Shown piece after piece: positions 3,734-51,489 of a stretch of 64,000 bases of DNA. Made by a program: the position numbers and the translations under genes. The DNA comes from a virus. Taxonomy: Duplodnaviria > Heunggongvirae > Uroviricota > Caudoviricetes. The notes under the pieces are model-generated. The model was not told where the DNA came from. It did no database searches and saw nothing but the letters and a program-made list of their open reading frames with translations. The stretch lies in IMG/VR virus record IMGVR_UViG_2639762884_000001. The stretch is one strand, 5' to 3'. Within the stretch, counting starts at the first letter, position 1, and every line of letters starts with the position of its first letter.

Positions 3734-4523
3734 TAAAGCAATCCCTGAGCTTGGCTCTGACGTTATGCAGCAAATCTATCTCTGCGCCATAAATCGCTAC
3801 CCTAATGAAGCGTGTGGCTTTCTGGTTAGAACTAATGGCGACAAATATCGCTTTATGGAAGCGCGGAATGTTTCGGAGAACCCGCAGAACACTTTTGTAA
3901 TGCACGTTGACGACATTATGGCGGCAGAGGATGCGGGTGATGTTATCGCAATCTGGCATTCACATACTGATGAATCAGCAGAAGCATCTGATGCCGATCG
4001 TGCAGGCTGCGAAGCGACGGAAGTTCCGTGGATGATTCTGGCTATTCGCAAGAATGTTGAGGGAGATGCCCCTTTCCATTTTAGCGAGATGAATGTGATC
4101 ACACCTGATGGTTTCGAAATGCCATACCTGGGCAGACCGTATGTATTTGGCGTATTCGATTGCTGGATGTTGTGTCGGGACTATTTGAAGCGTGAGTTTA
4201 ACGTCGAACTAAACCCGAACGCACACCTGCATATTCCATCGTGGTACACCGGCGATAACGACATTCTCGACCAGAACTACCGAAACGAAGGATTGGTACG
4301 GCTTGCGCCCGGAACAGAACCTCAACGTGGGGACATCTTCTTTATCCAATACGGGAAAATGCCCGACCACTGCGCGGTTTATATCGGCGATGGAATGATT
4401 CTTCATCACCAGATCGACCGCCTTAGTTGTCGTGCTTATTACGGCGGAATGTATCAGAAACATACGACGCATCACTTGCGTCACAGAGACTTGCTCAAGG
4501 GAGATGAGACGTGTCTGAGTTAG
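3699..4523 (+). CDS. Tail assembly protein, lambda gpK-like (JAMM/MPN plus NlpC/P60 domains)
   Basis: JAMM-like motif IWHSHTDESAEASDAD; downstream Cys/His pair (FDCWMLC ... HH) typical of NlpC/P60; overlaps L and I ORFs as in lambda. Confidence 0.75.
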   Translation: MADLLELRGMGNKAIPELGSDVMQQIYLCAINRYPNEACGFLVRTNGDKYRFMEARNVSENPQNTFVMHVDDIMAAEDAGDVIAIWHSHTDESAEASDADRAGCEATEVPWMILAIRKNVEGDAPFHFSEMNVITPDGFEMPYLGRPYVFGVFDCWMLCRDYLKREFNVELNPNAHLHIPSWYTGDNDILDQNYRNEGLVRLAPGTEPQRGDIFFIQYGKMPDHCAVYIGDGMILHHQIDRLSCRAYYGGMYQKHTTHHLRHRDLLKGDETCLS

Positions 4524-17133: not shown

Positions 17134-17802
17134 ATGACCAAGATCTTTGTGGTTGGCGGCACAAAGGGCGGGCCTGGCAAATCCACCGTTGCCCAGCAAA
17201 TTGCCGTTTGCCTGAAAGTCAAAAAGAAGAAGAAGGTTTATATCACCGATATAGATATTCAGCGCACGACAACGAGCTGGTGTGAAGACCGTCGACAGAA
17301 CGAAGATCTTGAGCTGATTCCTTTTGCATACGTTCAAGATGACATCATTAAGCACCTAAAATCGCTTCAGGGTAGAGCTGAGTATGTAGTGGTAGATGCT
17401 GGTGGCTTTGACTCCGAAATTCAGCGACAAGCGATGCTGATGGCCGACGTTATCATTATCCCGCTGCGTCCTAAGCGTCGTGATTTGAAATCTTTACGTG
17501 ACATCGATCCTATTATCGACAATGTTCGCAATGTAAACGACAAAGTGAAAGTCCGCGCGGTCATGAACCAATGCCCGGCTTTGCCATCACAAGTGTCTCG
17601 CATTCTAGCGGCTAAAGAGATTGTCGAGACGTTTGGCATCGAGTCTGCGCCAGTCAATCTATATAACCGCAACGTCTATGATGATGCGGAAGAGTCTGGT
17701 CGTTCTATCTTTGAAATGACCGGTAGCGAGCGCGACAAAAAGGCGGAAGCCGAGTTTGAAGAATTTGTAGATTATCTGTTGAGTCTGGAGGAAGAAGAAT
17801 AA
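17134..17802 (+). CDS. parA: Partition ATPase ParA (type Ib, deviant Walker A)
   Basis: KIFVVGGTKGGPGKSTVA deviant Walker A (KGGxGKS/T); 222 aa without N-terminal HTH. Confidence 0.8.
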   Translation: MTKIFVVGGTKGGPGKSTVAQQIAVCLKVKKKKKVYITDIDIQRTTTSWCEDRRQNEDLELIPFAYVQDDIIKHLKSLQGRAEYVVVDAGGFDSEIQRQAMLMADVIIIPLRPKRRDLKSLRDIDPIIDNVRNVNDKVKVRAVMNQCPALPSQVSRILAAKEIVETFGIESAPVNLYNRNVYDDAEESGRSIFEMTGSERDKKAEAEFEEFVDYLLSLEEEE

Positions 17803-18161
17803 TGTCCATGAAAATGGGTGACCTAGCAAAGCGCAAAGAGCCTGATGCACCGGCTAAGAACACAACTCCTTTGCGCCAACCAATCAGACCACAGGGACGC
17901 CCGACTCGTGGCAAAGAGAAAATTAAAAGCCGCACGATGTCACTGGAAGACGAATACTTCGAACTGCTGGAGATGATGAAGTTCATCCCTCGCTTCGAGA
18001 AGTTCACCCGTTCTGACGTGATTCGCGCAGCCATTTTCCATCTGGCAGAGAAGTCACCGCAGGAAATCGAGGACATCGTGAAACTTAACGAGGCGATCAC
18101 TGCTGCCGATGTCACGATGCGTACCGATGAAATTAAACGCGAGTTAATGAAGAAAGGTTGA
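17802..18161 (+). CDS. Small centromere-binding partition protein (ParG/RHH-like)
   Basis: 119-aa ORF translationally coupled to parA (ATG overlaps the stop); basic disordered N-terminus and small helical C-terminal domain. Confidence 0.45.
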   Translation: MSMKMGDLAKRKEPDAPAKNTTPLRQPIRPQGRPTRGKEKIKSRTMSLEDEYFELLEMMKFIPRFEKFTRSDVIRAAIFHLAEKSPQEIEDIVKLNEAITAADVTMRTDEIKRELMKKG

Positions 18162-43827: not shown

Positions 43828-44769
43828 AATTATCTCTTCGTAGATGGCAATAGCCTGGGTTATTACCACCAACAATCTGACAAATTGCACAACGGCGAAA
43901 TGGAAGTACAGGCTGCTTTCGGCTTTGTTAAGAACGTCCGTCGTTATGCCTCCATCCTCCATGCCCGACCTATGATTCTTTGGGATGGATTTAGTGACAA
44001 GCGTCGCGACTTTTACCCGGACTACAAAGCAAATCGCGACGACGATCCTGATATGAAAAAGATGAAGGAAGGCTTTGCTATCCAGAAGCCATACATCCTC
44101 AAAATGATGACCGCGCTTGGAGTTACCCAACTCATTGCAAAAGATGCAGAAGCGGATGATCTGGCCGGGCTGCTGGTATCCCGCATGGCACCGCAGCCAA
44201 CCGTTGAACACATCTATCTGTTAACAGGCGATAGCGACTGGCTTCAGTTAGTTCGTGAAAACGTAAGCTGGGTAAGCCTGCGTGAAGACGCCAAAAACAA
44301 GCAGGTTAATTTTGAGCAATTTGCGGAGCTGACAGGATTCGCCACGCCTCGCGCATTTTTGGAAGCAAAAGCATTACAAGGCGATAACTCGGACAACATT
44401 AGCGGTGTTGGTGGCATTGGTGCTGGCGGTGCGAAAGAGCTGCTGCATGAATGGGGAAGTGTCGCAACGATGGTACGCGGCATCAACGACGGCTCAATCG
44501 TGGTTAATAAAGGGCGTCATAAGACCGCCTTCAACAAACTAGCGAAGAATGCCTTCAACGAGAAAACAGGCTGTCGAATGCTCGAAGCGTTCAAGAGAAA
44601 CATCACGCTAATGAACCTGATTGAGACGAAGTTTCCGCCTACCGAAATCGAAACAATCAAAGGCAATCGTGACGTGAAAGCATTCGAGCAACTGTGCTAC
44701 GAGCTGAATTTCCGTTCGTTCCTTGAAGACCTTGAAGTGTTTGTTCTTCCATTCGAAAGGTATTGCTAA
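43828..44769 (+). CDS. 5'-3' exonuclease / flap endonuclease (Pol I N-terminal-domain family)
   Basis: LFVDGNSLGYY ... ILWDG ... DYKANRD ... KDAEADDL motifs; start moved to GTG at 43828 (RBS ggaagga) because the track ATG at 43774 lies inside the upstream terminator; start uncertain. Confidence 0.7.
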   Translation, partial: NYLFVDGNSLGYYHQQSDKLHNGEMEVQAAFGFVKNVRRYASILHARPMILWDGFSDKRRDFYPDYKANRDDDPDMKKMKEGFAIQKPYILKMMTALGVTQLIAKDAEADDLAGLLVSRMAPQPTVEHIYLLTGDSDWLQLVRENVSWVSLREDAKNKQVNFEQFAELTGFATPRAFLEAKALQGDNSDNISGVGGIGAGGAKELLHEWGSVATMVRGINDGSIVVNKGRHKTAFNKLAKNAFNEKTGCRMLEAFKRNITLMNLIETKFPPTEIETIKGNRDVKAFEQLCYELNFRSFLEDLEVFVLPFERYC

Positions 44770-45035
44770 TGCTTAAATCGATTATCAATGGCGCTACAAC
44801 CACCCCTGCCCAACTGGCAAAAGAGATTGTCTTTTATCACGGTGAGTACGCTGTCATCGCACTGCCGTCAATTCTAGGCGCTGCCGGAATGAAAGCGACA
44901 GATCGCGAGTTTGGATTAGTCAGCGAGCAGGTCGTAAAAATCCTCGCTCGTGTATCCAGACTCCTTAACCACGATGCGATTGTATTCGATGAATCCGCCG
45001 CTTTAAAACGAATCAACGAAACAAAAGGAGCCTGA
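44763..45035 (+). CDS. Hypothetical protein
   Basis: 90-aa ORF between exonuclease and recA-like genes. Confidence 0.3.
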   Translation: MLMLKSIINGATTTPAQLAKEIVFYHGEYAVIALPSILGAAGMKATDREFGLVSEQVVKILARVSRLLNHDAIVFDESAALKRINETKGA

Positions 45036-45037
45036 TC

Positions 45038-46111
45038 ATGGCAAAAGGAAAATCCGCACTGGCACTTGCTCTGAAAAAGAAAATCGGTAGCAACGACGAA
45101 ATTCAGAAAGTAACTCATTGGATTGATACAGGCTTTCCACCGTTAAACAAAGCTATTTCTGGTCGTTACGATGGCGGCTTCCCATGTGGTCGTATCGTCG
45201 AAGTATTCGGTCCTCCAAGTGCAGGGAAAACGTTCCTTGCAACAGCAGCGATGATCTCCGCTCAAAAACAAGATGGTCTGGCGGTATTCCTCGATCATGA
45301 AAACAGTTTTGACGTTGGCCTGGCTGTAGCCAATGGCCTGAACGCAGATGAGGATGACGGTCAGTGGGTATACAAGCAGCCAGATACCTTCGAAGACTCT
45401 GTAGAGTTGATCGGCACAATACTTAAATTGGTTCGTGATGAAGAGCTTATCCCCGAATCAGCACCTATCTGTATCGTGGCTGACTCTCTTGCGTCTATGG
45501 TTCCGAACTCCAAAGCTGAGAAGTTCGAAAAGATGGCTGAAGGCACTGCCAAAGACAAAGATCAGCTAAACATGAACGACAATACGGCACTGGCTCGTGC
45601 GACGAGTGCGAACTTCCCTACTCTGGCTTTGTGGGCACGCAAATACAACGCCTGCATCATCTTCTTGAATCAGGTTCGCACAAAAATCGGTGTAATGTTT
45701 GGCGACCCTACTACGTCGCCAGGTGGAGATTCACCGAAGTTCTACGCTTCTGTACGTATCCGTCTTGGTGCATCGGTGATGAAGGATGGTAAAGAGAAGA
45801 TCGGCCAGGACGTAGGCGCAGAATGCATCAAAAACAAAGTTGCACCACCGTATGGCAAATGCACCTGGAAATTCTACTTCGATCCTACTCGTGGCCTCGA
45901 CGTTATCGAATCGCTCGTCGAGTACATGCTGGAAGAAGGATACCTGCCAAAGAACGCCAGCGGGCGAGTTGAAATTGGTGACAAGAAATACACCAAATCG
46001 CAGATCGTCGAGATGTATCGGGAGAAGCCACTGGCTGAAATCATTGCGGCTTTGCAGGCAATCGACGACCGAAGAGCAAAAGACAACCCCACCGAGTCAG
46101 TAGAAGAGTAA
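45038..46111 (+). CDS. recA: RecA-like recombinase
   Basis: Walker A GPPSAGKT; IIFLNQVRTKIGVMFGDPTTSPGGDSPKFYASVRIRLG closely resembles the RecA core. Confidence 0.8.
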   Translation: MAKGKSALALALKKKIGSNDEIQKVTHWIDTGFPPLNKAISGRYDGGFPCGRIVEVFGPPSAGKTFLATAAMISAQKQDGLAVFLDHENSFDVGLAVANGLNADEDDGQWVYKQPDTFEDSVELIGTILKLVRDEELIPESAPICIVADSLASMVPNSKAEKFEKMAEGTAKDKDQLNMNDNTALARATSANFPTLALWARKYNACIIFLNQVRTKIGVMFGDPTTSPGGDSPKFYASVRIRLGASVMKDGKEKIGQDVGAECIKNKVAPPYGKCTWKFYFDPTRGLDVIESLVEYMLEEGYLPKNASGRVEIGDKKYTKSQIVEMYREKPLAEIIAALQAIDDRRAKDNPTESVEE

Positions 46112-46117
46112 ACACAA

Positions 46118-46141
46118 GGCGTCCACAGGACGCCTTTTTTA
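46118..46141 (+). terminator. Rho-independent terminator
   Basis: ggcgtcc-acag-ggacgcc followed by TTTTTT. Confidence 0.65.
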
Positions 46142-46203
46142 TCTCTTGAAAATATATAAGTGCTTACTTATTATTTTCGCATAACAACCACATAGGAAAA
46201 CAC

Positions 46204-46404
46204 ATGATCAAAATCTATCTATTGGCAGTAGCCACAGGCCTTTCAGTGGCTCTCATCTACGGTTTACTGGTTCCGTCGCTGATTTCTACCAAGAGTGATT
46301 TAGCCGTCATGTTTGGAGTTATCGTTGGTTTTGGTGCTCCTGTAATCGGTCTTATTGCTGGTCGTAAGTTTATCAACTCATTAATCAAAGCAAAGGGGAA
46401 ATAA
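46204..46404 (+). CDS. Small membrane protein
   Basis: 66 aa, two hydrophobic segments. Confidence 0.4.
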   Translation: MIKIYLLAVATGLSVALIYGLLVPSLISTKSDLAVMFGVIVGFGAPVIGLIAGRKFINSLIKAKGK

Positions 46405-46407
46405 GTA

Positions 46408-47238
46408 ATGAAGAAAGGTTTACTTGCAGTTGCTCTGGCGGCTATTTGCACAATGGGTCTTACTGGCTGCGATCGCGTGGAGCCTGGATACGTTGGCATC
46501 AAAGTAAACAAATTAGGTGAAGACAAAGGGATTGGTGAAGTGGTTGGCGTTGGTCGCCAATGGACAGGTCTTAACACCGAACTTTACGTATTCCCGACCT
46601 TCAAACAAATGAAGACCTACGACGAGCCGTTCACATTCCAGATGAGTGACGGTACTGCTATTGGTCACAAAATTGGCGTTGCGTATCTGGTTAATCGTGA
46701 CAAGGTAACGACGGTGTTCCAGACCTATCGCAAAGGCGTAGACGATATCACCGAATCAGATCTGCGTCAGAAAATTGCCGACTCTCTAAACCGTTTGGCC
46801 AGCCGTATGACCACTGACTCATTTATCGACGGTGGTAAGGCACAATTGCTGGACAACGCACTGAAAGATATTCAGAAAGAGATGTCTCCGGTTGGTATTG
46901 AGGTACTGAGCCTGTCATGGGTTGGAAAGCCTGATTACCCAAAAACTGTCATTGAATCTATTAACGCCAAAGTAACGGCTAACCAGCGTACTCTGCAACG
47001 TCAGCAGGAAGTTGAACAACGTAAAGCTGAGGCGAATATGCTACGTGAACAGGCTAATGGTGAAGCTGATGCTATCCGTGCTCGTGCGCAAGCAGAAGCA
47101 GACGCCATTCGTCTGCGCGGTGAAGCTCTGCGTCAAAACCCGAACGTTATGGAACTGGAAGCCATCAATAAATGGAATGGCCAGTTACCGCAGTACATGA
47201 CTCAAGGGGCTAACACTCCTTTCATTACAGTGAAATAA
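46408..47238 (+). CDS. SPFH/band-7 (prohibitin-like) domain lipoprotein
   Basis: Lipoprotein signal MKKGLLAVALAAICTMGLTGC; SPFH-like core followed by a coiled-coil Ala/Glu/Arg-rich segment. Confidence 0.6.
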   Translation: MKKGLLAVALAAICTMGLTGCDRVEPGYVGIKVNKLGEDKGIGEVVGVGRQWTGLNTELYVFPTFKQMKTYDEPFTFQMSDGTAIGHKIGVAYLVNRDKVTTVFQTYRKGVDDITESDLRQKIADSLNRLASRMTTDSFIDGGKAQLLDNALKDIQKEMSPVGIEVLSLSWVGKPDYPKTVIESINAKVTANQRTLQRQQEVEQRKAEANMLREQANGEADAIRARAQAEADAIRLRGEALRQNPNVMELEAINKWNGQLPQYMTQGANTPFITVK

Positions 47239-47254
47239 CTCCCCTAAAAAGTTC

Positions 47255-47280
47255 AGGCGTCCAGTTGGACGCCTTTTTTA
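47255..47280 (+). terminator. Rho-independent terminator
   Basis: aggcgtcc-agtt-ggacgcct followed by TTTTT; stem sequence nearly identical to the terminator at 46118. Confidence 0.65.
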
Positions 47281-47329
47281 TCGCAATTATCTTATTAAGA
47301 AAACAATTTGTTTAAAAGGATAAGAAAAC

Positions 47330-47755
47330 ATGGCAGCTATTAAGAAACTCTACGATGCCGCAAACGTGGCTCTGGATGTTATTGATGATGAAGTAGCAAA
47401 AGGCTTTCCTGAACCTGATTGGGCGCATCAGCTACGAAACGCTATCGCAGAAATGACCCCACCAGATCCAACCCCCGACGAGACAGACTGGCAGCGATTC
47501 ATCCGTATGTACGCTCAGGAAATAGGTCCAACGCCAACGGCAGAGCAGGCAATGCTGCTGAAATACTTCAAAGAGGCGGGAGAGGATTTACCAATTGATG
47601 ACTCAGCATATTGGTTCCACTGCGCATGGCGTAAGTATGACGTGATATTCACACAAGGCATGGGAAGCAAAGATATGGTTGTGTGGCATCTACTCCATAT
47701 AGACACAGCCGTTGACAGAGTTATTGAACAGTTTTTCCCTAAACAAGAAGATTGA
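47330..47755 (+). CDS. Hypothetical protein
   Basis: 141-aa ORF. Confidence 0.35.
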   Translation: MAAIKKLYDAANVALDVIDDEVAKGFPEPDWAHQLRNAIAEMTPPDPTPDETDWQRFIRMYAQEIGPTPTAEQAMLLKYFKEAGEDLPIDDSAYWFHCAWRKYDVIFTQGMGSKDMVVWHLLHIDTAVDRVIEQFFPKQED

Positions 47756-48301: not shown

Positions 48302-48637
48302 ATGAAGGCCATCCCATTCGCGCTGTTGTTCCTTTCTTCGATCGTTGTGGCCGACACCACTGTTTATCAGTGTGAAATGTCTGTAGCCGACGTTAAGAAT
48401 GGCGCTCTTACCGACGTCATAAAAGCACCATATGGCGCGATGGTCGTAGACAGCGGCGACCAGTTCTATGTTGTGCGAGACGATCGAGTATTGTCATCCC
48501 CATATCTCACAAACCGTAATGGCAAATTAACCGGCGTCGGAGAAGACCACTTCGTATACAACAAATACAAGGGCTTCTATGGCGTTCACGCTTCTCAGCA
48601 AAGCTACCTTTTCGATGACTGCAAGGAGGTTGGATAA
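48302..48637 (+). CDS. Secreted hypothetical protein
   Basis: Signal peptide MKAIPFALLFLSSIVVA; 111 aa. Confidence 0.4.
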   Translation: MKAIPFALLFLSSIVVADTTVYQCEMSVADVKNGALTDVIKAPYGAMVVDSGDQFYVVRDDRVLSSPYLTNRNGKLTGVGEDHFVYNKYKGFYGVHASQQSYLFDDCKEVG

Positions 48638-48849
48638 TGGCATTAACACTGGCAGGTCTGGAAATCGAGAAAACAAGCGGATACTGGCGTGCTAAGGGTT
48701 TCAAGCAGCCTGGCATTCTTGAGCGTCTGGAACGTGAAGATGGGTATATCGTCCACCAGCGGCGTGAATGGCGTATGTACGATCCAGAAACAGGAAAACT
48801 GACTACAAAAGCCGGAACACTTTGGGGTCTGTTGAAGAAAATACACTAA
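48637..48849 (+). CDS. Hypothetical small protein
   Basis: 70-aa ORF, overlapping start/stop with the previous gene. Confidence 0.3.
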   Translation: MALTLAGLEIEKTSGYWRAKGFKQPGILERLEREDGYIVHQRREWRMYDPETGKLTTKAGTLWGLLKKIH

Positions 48850-48895
48850 ATGCAAACTGACTGCGGCACGTTCCGCAGTCATATTTCATAGTCGT

Positions 48896-49429
48896 CACCG
48901 CTGACAGCATACACAATCAACTGCCGCTGATAGCATATCGAGAGTCTATCTCACCGCTCACAGCATACTTTACTCGATTTTTTACCGCTGACAGCATACT
49001 TAAGACATTGCATGAATAATGTGTACCGGTATGGGTATAACCAGAACAAAATTACCGCTGGCAGCATACGAAGGTCTGATATATGCCATTAATTACCGCT
49101 GATAGCATATCCAAACAAAAATTCCTCAATAAAACACCGCTGACAGCATACGTTCTATCAGGGAGCAGCAGGGAATAAATACCTTTCACTACAAGTAATC
49201 AGCGCAATGGGAATAGAATGTTAGTGAGCGCAAACCTATATGGAATGCACTCTTCGAGGTTAGTAACCACTGGGGAGGTATAAAAGAGCATTGAGTGGTG
49301 ATAGATGATTTACCGCTCACAGCATACGTTTATCTCACTATACCGCTGGTAGCATATCTTTAACCGTTCACAGCATACTTTTCAGAAAAATAGCCGCTGA
49401 TAGCATACATTTCACCGCTGACAGCATAT
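48896..49429. repeat. Iteron array downstream of repA: 12 copies of a 17-bp repeat (consensus YACCGCTGACAGCATAC) in two clusters
   Basis: Copies start at 48896, 48923, 48952, 48984, 49053, 49094, 49135 and at 49311, 49341, 49362, 49392, 49413; irregular spacing; 160-bp spacer between clusters. Confidence 0.8.
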
Positions 49430-50523
49430 CAAAGCAGTTTGAGACTATTGGAAAGGATCTCAATCATCTTGATATTTTCAGGCGTCAAATTCTGCGAAAG
49501 TTCAGTTATCTTGTTGATAATGTTCTGTTTAGCATCAATTTCCCCGGCTTTCTCATCTGGTTTTTTGGGTTCGATGTCTTCAGGTTTTGGCGGTGCGACT
49601 TTAAGTTTTGGATTGCGGCTGTGAATCTGGATATAGATCGACCGCCCTCGCTTAATCTCGCTGTATTCGAGATAGCCCAAATCTTGGAGAGCTTTTAAGC
49701 CGTTACGTATAGTCTGATTCTGCGAGCTTACATTCCTGCTACTCAAATTGAGTCGCGCACGCAATCGAGCAAGCGATACCGGCGCAGGCTTGGTTGGAAG
49801 ACTTTCGATGAAGGTGTACAGAGCCTGTGCTGTTTCTTTGCGTGGTAGCTTATTGATAACCTTTAACTGCAAAAGAACCTTATGGTCAAAGCGATATAGT
49901 TCGGCCAGCTTCGGTTCTGCATAGAACACCACCGTATCTTTCTGCTCGTTGTAGTCCACGCTATTGATGAGGTGCACCATCAGAAGCGAGATCTTGTTAG
50001 AGCCGTCGACGTTCTTTTCTTCATACGTTCTCTGGAAAGACAGAGTTGTACGCATGATCTTCAAAAGACTGTTTGTAAGCCGGTCGCGGAGTGTTTTGCG
50101 GATCTGTGACGATGGATAGCCACAAAACTTCGCAAATTTCGTGATGCTTAACTCGACACGACCGTTAGGTTCGCCGTATTCTGCCAGCGAACGCACAACG
50201 CCCACCCACGTTTTGAAATCATGATCCATGTCGAGACGAGGACCGGTTATCTTGATATCGGAATAGCCTTCAGAACGGGCTACTTCGAGCTGAACAAGCT
50301 CCTTTGAAGCATCGATCTCATTTGGCTTGTTACGCTTGCTGTATTTTGTCCCCTTGAGCGTGGGCACGAACAATCCCAGCCGCATCAACGCAATTGGTTG
50401 GACTGTATTGTTGCTATTAGGGACAAGTTCCCCTGTGTACAATTCAAGGGAACCTTCTTCAAAGTTGTCGAGATTATCTTCTACTTCTTTGTTATTTTTA
50501 CCTTTTTTATTTTTTGTGGACAT
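49429..50523 (-). CDS. repA: Plasmid-type replication initiator RepA
   Basis: ORF flanked on both sides by direct 17-bp iterons; start set at the internal ATG (MSTKNKKGKNNK) because the first 40 codons of the track ORF read through the upstream iterons; basic N-terminus and winged-helix-like C-terminal half. Confidence 0.65.
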   Translation of the reverse strand: MSTKNKKGKNNKEVEDNLDNFEEGSLELYTGELVPNSNNTVQPIALMRLGLFVPTLKGTKYSKRNKPNEIDASKELVQLEVARSEGYSDIKITGPRLDMDHDFKTWVGVVRSLAEYGEPNGRVELSITKFAKFCGYPSSQIRKTLRDRLTNSLLKIMRTTLSFQRTYEEKNVDGSNKISLLMVHLINSVDYNEQKDTVVFYAEPKLAELYRFDHKVLLQLKVINKLPRKETAQALYTFIESLPTKPAPVSLARLRARLNLSSRNVSSQNQTIRNGLKALQDLGYLEYSEIKRGRSIYIQIHSRNPKLKVAPPKPEDIEPKKPDEKAGEIDAKQNIINKITELSQNLTPENIKMIEILSNSLKLL

Positions 50524-50542
50524 GTGGACACCTTTGTCATTC

Positions 50543-50645
50543 AACCGCTGACAGCATACTTGATTTGCCGCTGACAGAATACCAAAAACAGTTGGCAGCA
50601 TACGGTGAACCGCTGACAGACTATCAATTACCGCTGACAGCATAC
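50543..50645. repeat. Iteron array upstream of repA (4-5 copies of the same 17-bp repeat)
   Basis: Copies at 50543, 50566, 50608 and 50629, plus a partial copy at 50591; overlaps the probable repA promoter. Confidence 0.75.
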
Positions 50646-50685
50646 ATGAACATGGCTTCAGACCAGTCGTGGCGCGGCTTACAGC

Positions 50686-50760
50686 GATCGGGGATCTTAT
50701 TTGATCTATACAAGGATCTATCTATGGATCTCTTTATTAGGATCTATCCTGTGGATATGT
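50686..50760. promoter_or_regulatory. Origin-like region: cluster of seven GATC sites plus a DnaA-box-like sequence
   Basis: GATC at 50686, 50693, 50703, 50715, 50727 and 50741 within 60 bp as reiterated (G)GATCTAT units; tgtggatat at 50751 matches the DnaA box consensus at 8 of 9 positions. Confidence 0.6.
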
Positions 50761-50844
50761 GAATAATTAAAACAGGCATTTACTACCTTCGGCGCACCTG
50801 GTGGGTTATCGTTGCCTCGGCTAACAATCACAGAAAAATGACAT

Positions 50845-51489
50845 ATGGATCTAAAACGCACGCGCTGGGTTCGTCGTCTTGAAGACGGCTCCTACACTAT
50901 CGAATCAAATTCCAACCTGAATAAGCAGAAGTTGCTTTGTGACATCTGCGGTATAGCGGCGAAGTGCCCGATCTACGAAACCAGAATTAAACTTGATAAG
51001 GCTGGTGTGAATTTTCATTTAAACAGTTGCATCAGGTACGTTCCATTACTCGCATTTCGTAAACCGATCATCGGATTGGATGCTCCCTACTTCAACACAC
51101 TCCGTTCAGGTGTGACGTGGCGAGATCGTTTATCACCAGACAAGCTGATTTGCCTCGTATCCGCAGACACAGGGAAAATCATCCGTTTTGGGAAAGTAGA
51201 CAAGGTTTACTCAGGCCCAGTAGACGAAATGTTGCGGAAACACAGCCGGTTTAATCATCTCTGTATGGGTGGTGAGAAAATCGAGAAGGTAGAAGAAGTG
51301 ATCCGCAAATCCTACGGACACTTTCTGACCAAAGATAGCCTGCTCACCGCAATCTACATCAGACATGTAAAACGTGAGTTCGACCTCGAATACCACAGCG
51401 AAGAAGAGCTTAACCTTGTTGACCCACGTCCAAAAGCTGGCGTCATAAGCATAAACGCAGCGCGTAAAAAGCCCACTGACGCGCTGTAA
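50845..51489 (+). CDS. Hypothetical protein
   Basis: 214-aa ORF immediately beyond the origin region. Confidence 0.35.
   Translation: MDLKRTRWVRRLEDGSYTIESNSNLNKQKLLCDICGIAAKCPIYETRIKLDKAGVNFHLNSCIRYVPLLAFRKPIIGLDAPYFNTLRSGVTWRDRLSPDKLICLVSADTGKIIRFGKVDKVYSGPVDEMLRKHSRFNHLCMGGEKIEKVEEVIRKSYGHFLTKDSLLTAIYIRHVKREFDLEYHSEEELNLVDPRPKAGVISINAARKKPTDAL

What the first reader, a model, noticed from the sequence alone, without database searches (positions are those of the whole stretch)
48896..50760. P1-type iteron replicon inside a phage genome (repA flanked by 17-bp iterons, with a GATC-rich DnaA-box origin)
A rep gene (49429-50523, minus strand) is bracketed by about 17 direct copies of a 17-bp repeat (YACCGCTGACAGCATAC): 12 downstream in two clusters and 4-5 upstream over the probable promoter. 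Beyond the upstream iterons lie seven GATC sites in about 60 bp and a DnaA-box-like tgtggatat. This is the architecture of the P1 plasmid replicon (incC iterons, repA, incA iterons, Dam-methylated origin with DnaA boxes). Combined with parA and its small partner at 17134-18161 and the full set of tail, lysis and DNA-metabolism genes, the element looks like a prophage that replicates as a low-copy plasmid.
Basis: partly seen in the sequence, partly recalled or inferred. Interest (0 to 1): 0.7.

Follow-up and report, generated by a model that had tools for sequence, protein, structure and literature searches.

The report
P1/RepFIB-type plasmid replicon of phage-plasmid
This 2-kb stretch is the plasmid-maintenance replicon of an SSU5-like E. 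coli phage-plasmid: a homologue of the P1 and F-RepFIB initiator flanked by 17 binding repeats, next to a Dam/DnaA origin.

Summary
There are 17 direct copies of a 16-17-bp repeat (repA-sense RTATGCTGTCAGCGGY). Twelve lie downstream of repA (7 + 5) and five upstream at 21-23-bp phasing. At 2 mismatches or fewer the window holds 16 copies against 0.15 expected. Beyond the upstream repeats come a GC-rich spacer, six (not seven) GATC sites in 59 bp, and two tandem DnaA boxes (not one).

RepA is a true homologue of P1 RepA (46% identity, E 4e-86), F RepFIB RepA (52%) and SSU5 RepA (49%). The DnaA-box/GATC/spacer half of the origin aligns base for base with P1 oriR (61%). The model has the RepE/pi/RctB winged-helix fold.

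All full-length copies in 5,426 complete E. coli genomes lie on plasmids, mostly about 107-116 kb, and none on a chromosome. The backbone is that of SSU5-like phages (Cyrano, PhiR41_1). Plasmids typed IncFIB(H89-PhagePlasmid) in the literature carry this replicon at 98% identity.

It differs from P1 in four ways: all 12 control iterons are direct, RepA has an extra C-terminal helical domain, the ParA is small and not P1-like, and the phage backbone is unrelated. Function is inferred by homology and was not tested.

Verdict: already known, low interest.

The parts
48858..48881 (.). GC-rich hairpin with T-runs on both strands. It is a terminator-like boundary between the upstream gene (48637-48849) and the replicon cassette.
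   Evidence: Homology with plasmids that carry the alternative replicon ends here, at about 48850-48866.
48896..49152 (-). Distal control array (incA-like, part 1): 7 direct iterons, with cores starting at 48897, 48923, 48953, 48984, 49054, 49095 and 49136.
   Evidence: Phage PhiR41_1 lacks exactly the 87 bp between the perfect cores at 48897 and 48984, which removes 3 iterons.
49311..49429 (-). Proximal control array (incA-like, part 2): 5 direct iterons, with cores starting at 49312, 49342, 49363, 49393 and 49414. The last core ends one base before the repA stop codon.
   Evidence: In P1, incA iteron 9 abuts the repA stop in the same way.
49429..50523 (-). repA, the iteron-binding replication initiator, 364 aa including a C-terminal two-helix extension (aa 331-363).
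   Evidence: Pfam Rep3_N WH1, E 3.9e-9. 46% identical to P1 RepA, 49% to SSU5 RepA, 52% to F RepFIB RepA. The AlphaFold model matches RctB, RepE and pi.
50524..50541 (-). repA leader with a Shine-Dalgarno sequence (AAAGGTG, 5 nt before ATG 50523).
   Evidence: Sequence read. The RefSeq start at 50643 has no SD, and its extra 40 aa are encoded almost entirely by the five origin iterons.
50542..50646 (-). Origin iterons (incC-like): 5 direct copies at 23/21/21/21-bp phasing. The repA promoter is presumed to lie here, giving autoregulation.
   Evidence: Number and phasing match P1 incC. Only a weak sigma-70 candidate was found (TTGGTA-18-AAGTAT, 50585-50556, 7 of 12).
50647..50685 (-). GC-rich spacer (44% AT) between the iterons and the GATC repeats.
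   Evidence: The conserved blocks GCCGCGCCACG and CTGG are shared with P1 oriR.
50686..50749 (-). Dam-site region: six GATC in 59 bp. Five sit in AGATCC/A heptamers at 10-14-bp spacing, in a 63% AT stretch. This is the presumed unwinding and SeqA-sequestration region.
   Evidence: It aligns with the five Dam sites of P1 oriR and with the same module in F RepFIB.
50750..50766 (-). Two tandem DnaA boxes (TTATTCACA and ATATCCACA on the repA-sense strand) at the outer edge of the origin.
   Evidence: They occupy the same position as the tandem DnaA boxes of P1 oriR.
17134..17802 (+). Small ParA-type partition ATPase (222 aa). It is part of the plasmid life style but not of the replicon.
   Evidence: Pfam AAA_31, MipZ, CbiA and ParA. 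Not P1 ParA-like (E 0.022).
17802..18161 (+). 119-aa partner ORF, overlapping the parA stop codon by one base. It is a presumed centromere-binding adaptor.
   Evidence: ORF list. No Pfam match, and no clear centromere repeats nearby.

Best explanation
Window 48.85-50.85 kb is the prophage-state (plasmid) replicon of an SSU5/pHCM2-like siphovirus phage-plasmid of E. coli. It belongs to the P1 RepA / RepFIB family and is the type that PlasmidFinder calls IncFIB(H89-PhagePlasmid).

Proposed mechanism, by homology with P1 oriR and RepFIB. RepA monomers bind the five phased origin iterons (50542-50646). Host DnaA binds the two boxes at 50750-50766. Together they open the adjacent AT-rich AGATCC-heptamer region (50686-50749) so that host DnaB can load. 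Dam methylation of the six GATC sites licenses the origin, and hemimethylation after firing allows sequestration. Because the origin iterons lie directly upstream of repA, RepA would also repress its own promoter. The 12 downstream iterons (48896-49429) would titrate RepA and pair with origin iterons ('handcuffing'), which holds copy number low and defines incompatibility. A separate small ParA system (17134-18161) would segregate the copies.

Shown here: the anatomy, the protein and DNA homology, the fold, and exclusively extrachromosomal carriage. Inferred: binding, origin opening, autoregulation, handcuffing and Dam dependence.
For: - 17 iterons against 0.15 expected by chance.
- RepA has a Pfam Rep3_N WH1 domain.
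- BLASTP identities: 46% to P1 RepA (E 4e-86), 52% to F RepFIB RepA (E 2e-110), 49% to SSU5 RepA (E 2e-106).
- AlphaFold model (pLDDT 71.7; 78-92 in the core, residues 71-210). The best PDB matches are the iteron initiators RctB, RepE and pi.
- The origin aligns with P1 oriR at 61%, with conserved DnaA boxes, AGATCC heptamers and GC spacer. F RepFIB has the same module.
- Iteron number, phasing and abutment to the repA stop codon mirror the annotated, experimentally defined P1 features.
- Iteron sequence tracks RepA divergence. Klebsiella pJN2-26 (RepA about 85% identical) has the same iteron core. SSU5, the pLF82 type and P1 (RepA 46-49% identical) have different cores within the same architecture.
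- In 5,426 complete E. coli genomes, 118 carry at least 80% of repA. All full-length hits are on plasmids; the 10 chromosomal places reported for the repA query appear to be short spacer-sized matches: the one listed and examined is a 33-nt CRISPR spacer.
- PLSDB holds 203 records, 196 of them non-mobilizable; the two records inspected are typed rep_cluster_488 as their only replicon.
- Plasmids reported as IncFIB(H89-PhagePlasmid), namely p47258-4 (110,844 bp) and p2-S1-NGR-02-A, are among the 98% hits.
- The sister element Cyrano shares the backbone. It is kept at about 5.5 copies per chromosome and makes virions on ciprofloxacin induction (PMC9928086).
Against: - No experiment on this replicon type was found in the held literature. 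Every mechanistic step rests on homology.
- No convincing sigma-70 promoter was detected within the origin iterons; the best candidate scores 7 of 12.
- There is no DnaA box between the iterons and repA, where P1 has one.
- All 12 downstream iterons are direct, whereas six of P1's nine are inverted. The pairing geometry may therefore differ.
- Sequence search of the PDB found nothing, and fold matches have only modest TM-scores of 0.4-0.54.
- The element also encodes a DnaB-like helicase, a primase and a Pol III alpha-like protein. Dependence on host replication proteins is therefore not certain.
Confidence: 0.9

Rival explanations
1. The RepA/iteron origin is the lytic (vegetative) origin of the phage. 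Plasmid maintenance would rely on some other function.
For: The element also carries its own DnaB-like helicase, primase, ligase and Pol III alpha-like genes. This shows it invests heavily in replication. No experiment separates the two modes.
Against: The homologues in P1 and F RepFIB are plasmid-maintenance replicons; P1 uses a separate oriL/repL for lytic growth (established knowledge; P1 annotation). MOB-suite finds no other replicon in the two plasmids of this type whose typing was read. E. albertii derivatives of 62-64 kb with no annotated virion genes keep this replicon and persist as plasmids in several strains. A low-copy control array of 12 iterons makes little sense for run-away lytic replication.
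Confidence: 0.04
2. The direct repeats are attachment-site or prophage-boundary repeats, as annotated in GenBank MZ779062. That record labels two copies attL and attR.
For: An automated annotation in the pJN2-26 record marks 20-bp repeats flanking repA as attL/attR.
Against: There are 17 copies, not 2, all within 1.75 kb around a Rep gene. No full-length copy is chromosomal in 5,426 genomes. The architecture matches that of the experimentally defined RepA iterons of P1.
Confidence: 0.01
3. The downstream arrays are mainly a partition centromere, or a site with some other structural role, rather than a copy-number control locus.
For: No obvious centromere repeats were found next to the parA operon, so the centromere is unassigned.
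Against: The downstream repeats have the same sequence as the origin iterons, so they should bind RepA rather than a ParB-like adaptor. Their position and abutment to the repA stop codon copy P1 incA. The number of downstream iterons varies among relatives: 12 here, 9 in PhiR41_1, 8 in pJN2-26. That is expected for a titrating locus.
Confidence: 0.04
4. The replicon is a relic that no longer functions.
For: None specific.
Against: The ORF is intact and 98-100% conserved in at least 118 complete genomes, with all 17 iterons retained in the two close relatives examined. It is the only replicon typed on the two plasmids of this type whose typing was read. 69 RepA columns are invariant across 35 homologues.
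Confidence: 0.01

Closest known systems
P1 plasmid replicon (oriR/incC - repA - incA), Punavirus P1
   Same: - RepA is homologous: 46% identity over almost the whole P1 protein.
- Five origin iterons at 21-22-bp phasing lie directly upstream of repA.
- A second iteron array starts at the repA stop codon.
- A GC-rich spacer of about 39 bp, GATC-containing AGATCC heptamers and two tandem DnaA boxes sit at the outer edge, alignable at 61% identity.
- Both elements are plasmid prophages.
   Different: - The iteron sequence differs: P1 GATGTGTGCTGGAGGGAAA against RTATGCTGTCAGCGGY here.
- There are 12 control iterons, all direct and in two clusters. P1 has 9, of which 6 are inverted.
- There are six GATC sites against five.
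- There is no DnaA box between the iterons and repA.
- RepA is 78 aa longer, with an N-terminal Lys-rich tail and a C-terminal linker plus two-helix domain.
- parAB is adjacent and of the large type in P1. Here a small ParA lies 31 kb away.
- The phage backbone is unrelated (siphovirus SSU5-like against myovirus P1).
RepFIB replicon of F / P307 (IncFIB)
   Same: This was the closest characterised initiator tested: 52% identity, E 2e-110, including the C-terminal extension. It has the same origin plan, with a DnaA box, five GATC sites at about 11-bp spacing, then iterons, and more iterons downstream of repA. It shares the Pfam family PF01051 and the RefSeq name 'RepB family plasmid replication initiator'.
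   Different: The iteron core differs (ATAAGCTGTAGTCAG in F). F has fewer and mixed-orientation downstream iterons. RepFIB sits in conjugative multi-replicon F plasmids, whereas this is the sole typed replicon of a non-mobilizable phage-plasmid.
SSU5 / pHCM2 / pLF82 (phage Cyrano) replicon, PlasmidFinder IncFIB(pLF82-PhagePlasmid) or IncFIB(pHCM2)
   Same: It has the same phage backbone and the same genomic slot, between the 70-aa 'Cra/Cre-associated' gene and the 214-aa ORF. RepA is homologous (49%). The DnaA/GATC module is the same (66% identity).
   Different: The iteron core differs (ATCCACTGTAGAGAG). The layout also differs: five origin iterons, a gap of about 300 bp, about four more iterons near repA, and about 10-13 downstream in mixed orientation. 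The two are therefore predicted to be compatible specificity types.
IncFIB(H89-PhagePlasmid) replicon of pECOH89-like plasmids
   Same: Plasmids published under this type, p47258-4 (110,844 bp) and p2-S1-NGR-02-A, match the 2-kb replicon at 98% identity over the whole query or up to the record start. Size (about 110 kb) and phage-like content agree.
   Different: None detected. The reference pECOH89 (HG530657) itself was not in the collections, so identity to the type sequence is indirect.
RepE (F RepFIA), pi (R6K) and RctB (Vibrio chromosome 2) iteron initiators
   Same: They share the dual winged-helix fold (Foldseek E 9e-8 to 1.5e-2) and the iteron-binding logic.
   Different: There is no detectable sequence similarity: RepE BLASTP E 0.26, and no PDB sequence hit.

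Membership tests
P1 RepA / RepFIB-type iteron replicon | Initiator homologous to P1 RepA and RepFIB RepA (Pfam PF01051 Rep3_N) | tested here: met
   Pfam E 3.9e-9, above the gathering score. P1 RepA 46%, E 4e-86. F RepFIB RepA 52%, E 2e-110.
P1 RepA / RepFIB-type iteron replicon | Tandem winged-helix (WH1-WH2) fold of iteron initiators | tested here: met
   AlphaFold2 model, mean pLDDT 71.7 (core 78-92). Top PDB matches are RctB domains 2-3, RepE, the MSBI1.176 WH1 domain, pi and TrfA. TM-scores are modest (0.4-0.54).
P1 RepA / RepFIB-type iteron replicon | Cluster of directly repeated, helically phased iterons at the origin, immediately upstream of repA | tested here: met
   Five copies spaced 23/21/21/21 bp, ending 18 bp before the ATG. 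P1 spacing is 21/21/21/22.
P1 RepA / RepFIB-type iteron replicon | Second iteron array downstream of repA (incA-type control locus) | tested here: met
   12 copies in two clusters, the first abutting the stop codon. The orientation pattern differs from P1.
P1 RepA / RepFIB-type iteron replicon | AT-rich region with clustered Dam (GATC) heptamers, plus DnaA boxes at the outer edge of the origin | tested here: met
   Six GATC in 59 bp and two tandem DnaA boxes. The region aligns with P1 oriR at 61% identity, and F RepFIB has the same module.
P1 RepA / RepFIB-type iteron replicon | Autonomous replication, RepA-iteron binding, iteron-mediated incompatibility and copy control, Dam/DnaA dependence | not testable with these tools
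   These need cloning, EMSA and genetics. No experimental paper on this replicon type was found.
Plasmid prophage (phage-plasmid), SSU5/pHCM2-like group | Extrachromosomal carriage rather than integration | tested here: met
   For the 2-kb query, 0 chromosomal and 273 plasmid places. For repA alone, 120 plasmid places and 10 chromosomal places; the one chromosomal place listed and examined is a 33-nt CRISPR spacer.
Plasmid prophage (phage-plasmid), SSU5/pHCM2-like group | SSU5-like virion and DNA-metabolism backbone, with relatives shown to be phages | tested here: met
   Window 1-25000 is 97.6% identical to phage Cyrano and 80% to SSU5. The RefSeq twin carries tail, helicase, primase, ligase, tRNA and recombinase genes. 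PhiR41_1 is deposited as a phage on MG1655. Cyrano virions and a copy number of 5.5 are reported in PMC9928086.
PlasmidFinder IncFIB(H89-PhagePlasmid) | repA nucleotide identity to the reference pECOH89 (HG530657) above the typing threshold | tested here: inconclusive
   The reference is not in the collections. Indirectly met: two plasmids published with this type are 98% identical to the window replicon.
Phage P1 (Punavirus) itself | P1 backbone, with the P1-type large ParA/ParB/parS next to repA | tested here: not met
   Nucleotide searches hit SSU5-like phages, not P1. ParA here is 222 aa and unrelated to the 398-aa P1 ParA beyond the P-loop (E 0.022). It lies 31 kb from repA.

The most novel reading that the evidence does not exclude
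The H89-type replicon may be one of at least two interchangeable 'specificity cassettes' of about 2 kb occupying the same slot in near-identical SSU5-like phage backbones; the other is the pLF82/Cyrano type. The cassettes would be exchanged by recombination in the 98-100% identical flanks. Such a swap would let otherwise identical phage-plasmids escape replicon incompatibility. It would also let them escape host type I-E CRISPR spacers that target repA. Recombination between the all-direct iterons (for example the 3-iteron loss in PhiR41_1) would tune copy number, and so the dosage of cargo such as blaCTX-M-15.
Probability: 0.35. Interest if true: 0.35.

Novelty: already known. Interest (0 to 1): 0.15.

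Why it matters
The finding explains how a common E. coli phage-plasmid lineage persists as a low-copy plasmid. This replicon type is present in about 2% of complete E. coli genomes, and its relatives carry blaCTX-M-15. The analysis gives exact coordinates for the origin, the iterons and the control locus. These are useful for building mini-replicons, for predicting incompatibility, and for correcting database annotation: the RepA start is called 40 codons too early, and iterons are labelled attL/attR in one record. It does not change current understanding. It is a textbook P1/RepFIB-type replicon that is already in typing schemes.

Tried and rejected
- NCBIfam gave no family for RepA.
- A sequence search of the PDB gave nothing at E <= 1. 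Only the fold search worked.
- Rfam at E <= 1 found no RNA family in 48400-51200, so there is no evidence for an antisense-RNA control element.
- The promoter scan found no good sigma-70 site in the origin iterons. A relaxed scan gave only a 7-of-12 candidate.
- pECOH89 (HG530657) could not be fetched, so the PlasmidFinder type was assigned indirectly.
- The 2026 bioRxiv preprint on phage-plasmid heteroresistance mentions repA many times but could not be opened. Its relevance is unknown.
- The iteron-free spacers (48999-49053, 49153-49305) are not conserved in Klebsiella pJN2-26. I did not pursue them as functional elements.
- No centromere-like repeats were seen around parA.
- The attL/attR reading of the repeats and the 404-aa RepA start were considered and rejected (see the rival explanations and the full report).
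- Co-occurrence of the two replicon types in one genome could not be counted, because the hit lists are truncated.
Full report
**1. The observation**

I read 48600-51100 directly. An ORF of 364 aa runs on the minus strand from ATG 50523 to the stop at 49429-49431.

The core ACCGCTGACAGCATA occurs 16 times at 2 mismatches or fewer, and a 17th time (50588) at 3 mismatches. Every copy is on the + strand and lies between 48897 and 50644. Dinucleotide shuffles of the 64-kb window give a mean of 0.15 matches, and none of 100 shuffles reaches 16. The only other hits at 3 mismatches or fewer in the window are two isolated minus-strand sites.

Aligning the 17 copies shows information over 16-17 positions: RTATGCTGTCAGCGGY on the repA-sense strand.

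The layout is as follows.
- Seven copies at 48897-49150.
- A repeat-free gap of about 160 bp (176 bp between core starts).
- Five copies at 49312-49428, the last core ending one base before the repA stop codon.
- repA.
- Five copies at 50544-50644, spaced 23/21/21/21 bp, which is two helical turns.

Two corrections apply.
- The GATC cluster has six sites in 59 bp (50686-50744), not seven. It is nevertheless the densest 70-bp GATC window in the whole 64 kb.
- There are two abutting DnaA boxes, at 50750 and 50758, not one.

**2. What the protein is**

- Pfam places residues 118-239 in Rep3_N, the WH1 domain of iteron initiators (E 3.9e-9).
- A tblastn search against phage genomes finds P1 and P7 RepA (43.5% identity, E 2e-64) and SSU5 RepA (47.9%).
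- Pairwise BLASTP gives 46% identity over 278 aa to P1 RepA, covering P1 residues 20-284 of 286 (E 4e-86). It gives 49% to SSU5 RepA and 52% to the RepFIB initiator of plasmid F (E 2e-110).
- RepE of F (RepFIA) shows no sequence similarity (E 0.26), and a sequence search of the PDB is empty.
- An AlphaFold2 model built on 35 homologues has mean pLDDT 71.7, with 78-92 in the core (residues 71-210). Its best PDB matches are RctB domains 2-3, RepE, a WH1 domain, pi and TrfA, all of them iteron initiators with winged-helix domains.
- Relative to P1 RepA the protein has a disordered Lys-rich N-terminus. It also has a disordered Pro/Lys/Glu linker (309-329) followed by a confident two-helix domain (331-363). 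F RepFIB RepA shares that C-terminal extension.

**3. The origin is homologous to P1 oriR at the DNA level**

I wrote both origins on the repA-sense strand. The order of elements is the same in each:
- two tandem DnaA boxes;
- GGATAGATCC;
- further AGATCC heptamers;
- AGATCCCYGATCG;
- a GC-rich spacer holding GCCGCGCCACG..CTGG;
- the first iteron.

MAFFT gives 61% identity to P1, 66% to SSU5 and 78% to Klebsiella phage pJN2-26 over about 155 nt. F RepFIB has the same module.

The annotated P1 record supplies the experimentally defined reference. It has five incC iterons at 21-22-bp phasing carrying the repA promoter, five Dam sites, DnaA boxes, and nine incA iterons beginning at the repA stop codon. 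All of these have counterparts here.

There are differences.
- The iteron sequence differs.
- All 12 downstream iterons are direct. In P1, six of nine are inverted.
- P1 has a DnaA box between the iterons and repA. This window has none.

**4. Iterons co-vary with RepA**

A de novo search for the most repeated 15-mer in each relative gave these results.
- Klebsiella pJN2-26 (RepA about 85% identical): the same iteron core, arranged 5 + 8.
- SSU5 and the E. coli pLF82-type plasmid p20170902CC-1 (RepA about 48% identical): a different core, ATCCACTGTAGAGAG. There are five at the origin, about four nearer repA, and about 10-13 downstream in mixed orientation.
- P1 and F: different cores again.

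This is the pattern expected of a cognate initiator and its binding site.

**5. Which start codon**

RefSeq calls a 404-aa protein from ATG 50643. That ATG lies inside the outermost iteron and has no Shine-Dalgarno sequence. Its 40 extra residues are almost entirely the translation of the five iterons.

ATG 50523 is preceded by AAAGGTG at 5 nt. The GenBank record of PhiR41_1 uses it. It is also consistent with the alignments to P1, SSU5 and F RepFIB, which begin at residues 30-32. I take 364 aa as correct.

**6. What element this is**

The 2-kb region is 100% identical to a 108,475-bp plasmid of a chicken E. coli isolate (NZ_OZ392439 / NZ_JBVDMJ010000004). It is 99% identical to Escherichia phage PhiR41_1, which is deposited with MG1655 as host.

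The RefSeq twin encodes tape-measure and tail-tip proteins, a ParA-like ATPase, a DnaB-like helicase, a primase, a ligase, four tRNAs and a tyrosine recombinase. Window 1-25000 is 97.6% identical to phage Cyrano (pLF82) and 80% to Salmonella phage SSU5.

This is the SSU5/pHCM2-like phage-plasmid group, which is described in PMC7969092 and PMC8085198. Cyrano has been shown to sit at about 5.5 copies per chromosome and to make virions after ciprofloxacin treatment (PMC9928086).

**7. Always a plasmid**

In 5,426 complete E. coli genomes the 2-kb query has 273 places on plasmids and none on chromosomes. repA alone is present at 80% coverage or more in 118 genomes, always on plasmids, and those listed are mostly 107-116 kb. 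The query also reports ten chromosomal places; the only one listed is a 33-nt match, which I examined and found to be a CRISPR spacer.

PLSDB holds 203 records, 196 of them non-mobilizable; the two records inspected are typed rep_cluster_488 as their only replicon.

**8. The name**

Two plasmids are published as IncFIB(H89-PhagePlasmid): p47258-4 (110,844 bp, PMC12838234) and p2-S1-NGR-02-A (PMC11358271). Both are among the 98% hits: strain 47258 at 110,844 bp, and strain S1-NGR-02-A. The reference pECOH89 could not be fetched, so the assignment is indirect but strong.

**9. Mechanism (inferred)**

By homology with P1 and RepFIB, I propose these steps.
- RepA monomers bind the five origin iterons.
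- DnaA binds the two boxes, and the AGATCC-heptamer region (63% AT) opens.
- Dam methylation licenses the origin, and hemimethylation after firing sequesters it.
- RepA bound to the origin iterons represses repA.
- The 12 downstream iterons titrate RepA and handcuff the origin, which sets a low copy number and defines incompatibility.

None of these steps was tested here. I found no experimental paper on this replicon type. The promoter is weakly defined.

**10. Other points**

- Plasmids of the pLF82 type share flanks of 98-100% identity, up to window 48850 and from about 50855. Between those points they carry the other replicon. Each type occurs in about 120-130 complete genomes. PMC7969092 describes the same kind of allelic replicase swap for P1 (IncY against p0111).
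- PhiR41_1 has lost three distal iterons through recombination between two perfect cores.
- E. albertii plasmids of 62-64 kb keep the replicon and parA, have no annotated virion genes, and have acquired metG, apbC and hdeAB.
- ParA is a small 222-aa type unrelated to P1 ParA.

**Verdict**

The feature is a known replicon type of a known phage-plasmid family. Interest is low.

Noticed in passing
window 49961-49995 (inside repA): At least one, and probably ten (ten chromosomal places were reported, one inspected), complete E. coli chromosomes carry a type I-E CRISPR spacer identical to repA 49961-49992. The array is next to ygcE and has the repeat GAGTTCCCCGCGCCAGCGGGGATAAACCG. The protospacer has a canonical AAG PAM (CTT on the + strand at 49993-49995). 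PMC12736100 independently reports seven UPEC spacers matching PhiR41_1.
   Followed up: partly
window 48850-50855; L005/L006 (NZ_AP025215): The whole replicon behaves as a swappable cassette of about 2 kb. pLF82/Cyrano-type phage-plasmids are 98-100% identical on both flanks, but in the same slot they carry a 48%-identical RepA with different iterons. Each type is found in about 120-130 of 5,426 complete E. coli genomes.
   Followed up: partly
window 48897-48984; L002 (PhiR41_1) 6098: Phage PhiR41_1 lacks exactly 87 bp between two perfect iteron cores. That removes 3 of the 12 control iterons, leaving 14 in total. It is natural copy-number variation of the control locus by iteron-iteron recombination.
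   Followed up: partly
window 50524-50643; L008 (MZ779062) 2753-2772 and 4023-4042: There are two database annotation errors. RefSeq starts RepA 40 codons too early, inside the outermost iteron, so the extra residues are almost entirely translated iterons. The GenBank record of Klebsiella phage pJN2-26 labels two iterons as attL and attR.
   Followed up: yes
window 49429-49594 (RepA aa 310-364): RepA has a disordered Pro/Lys/Glu linker followed by a confidently modelled two-helix C-terminal domain. P1 RepA lacks this domain, but F RepFIB RepA has the extension, and the consensus of the 35 aligned homologues shows a conserved C-terminal motif. Its function is unknown.
   Followed up: partly
window 17134-18161: The partition ATPase is a small 222-aa ParA, unrelated to the 398-aa P1 ParA (E 0.022). 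Its 119-aa partner has no Pfam match. No centromere-like repeats were found nearby, so the centromere is unassigned.
   Followed up: partly
L003/L010/L011 (E. albertii NZ_CP034165, 63.8 kb): Several E. albertii strains carry derivatives of 62-64 kb with the same replicon (98.6% identity) and parA. In the one derivative inspected the helicase and primase genes are retained, no virion genes are annotated, and chromosomal-type cargo (metG, apbC, hdeAB) and IS elements have been gained. These are phage-plasmids decayed into plain plasmids.
   Followed up: partly
L008 (Klebsiella phage pJN2-26) 2750-4210: Klebsiella SSU5-like phage-plasmids have a RepA about 85% identical and the same iteron core, GTATGCTGTCAGCGGT, arranged 5 + 8. 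This predicts cross-incompatibility with the E. coli H89 type despite separate typing names.
   Followed up: no
window about 44066-47600; L002/L005 973-3312: In relatives (PhiR41_1, p20170902CC-1) the RecA-like gene upstream is 2.3 kb long and is annotated as a LAGLIDADG homing endonuclease, which suggests an intein. In NZ_CP025883 it is a plain 1.07-kb recA. BLAST shows a matching 1.26-kb insertion in p20170902CC-1 relative to the window at about 45229.
   Followed up: no
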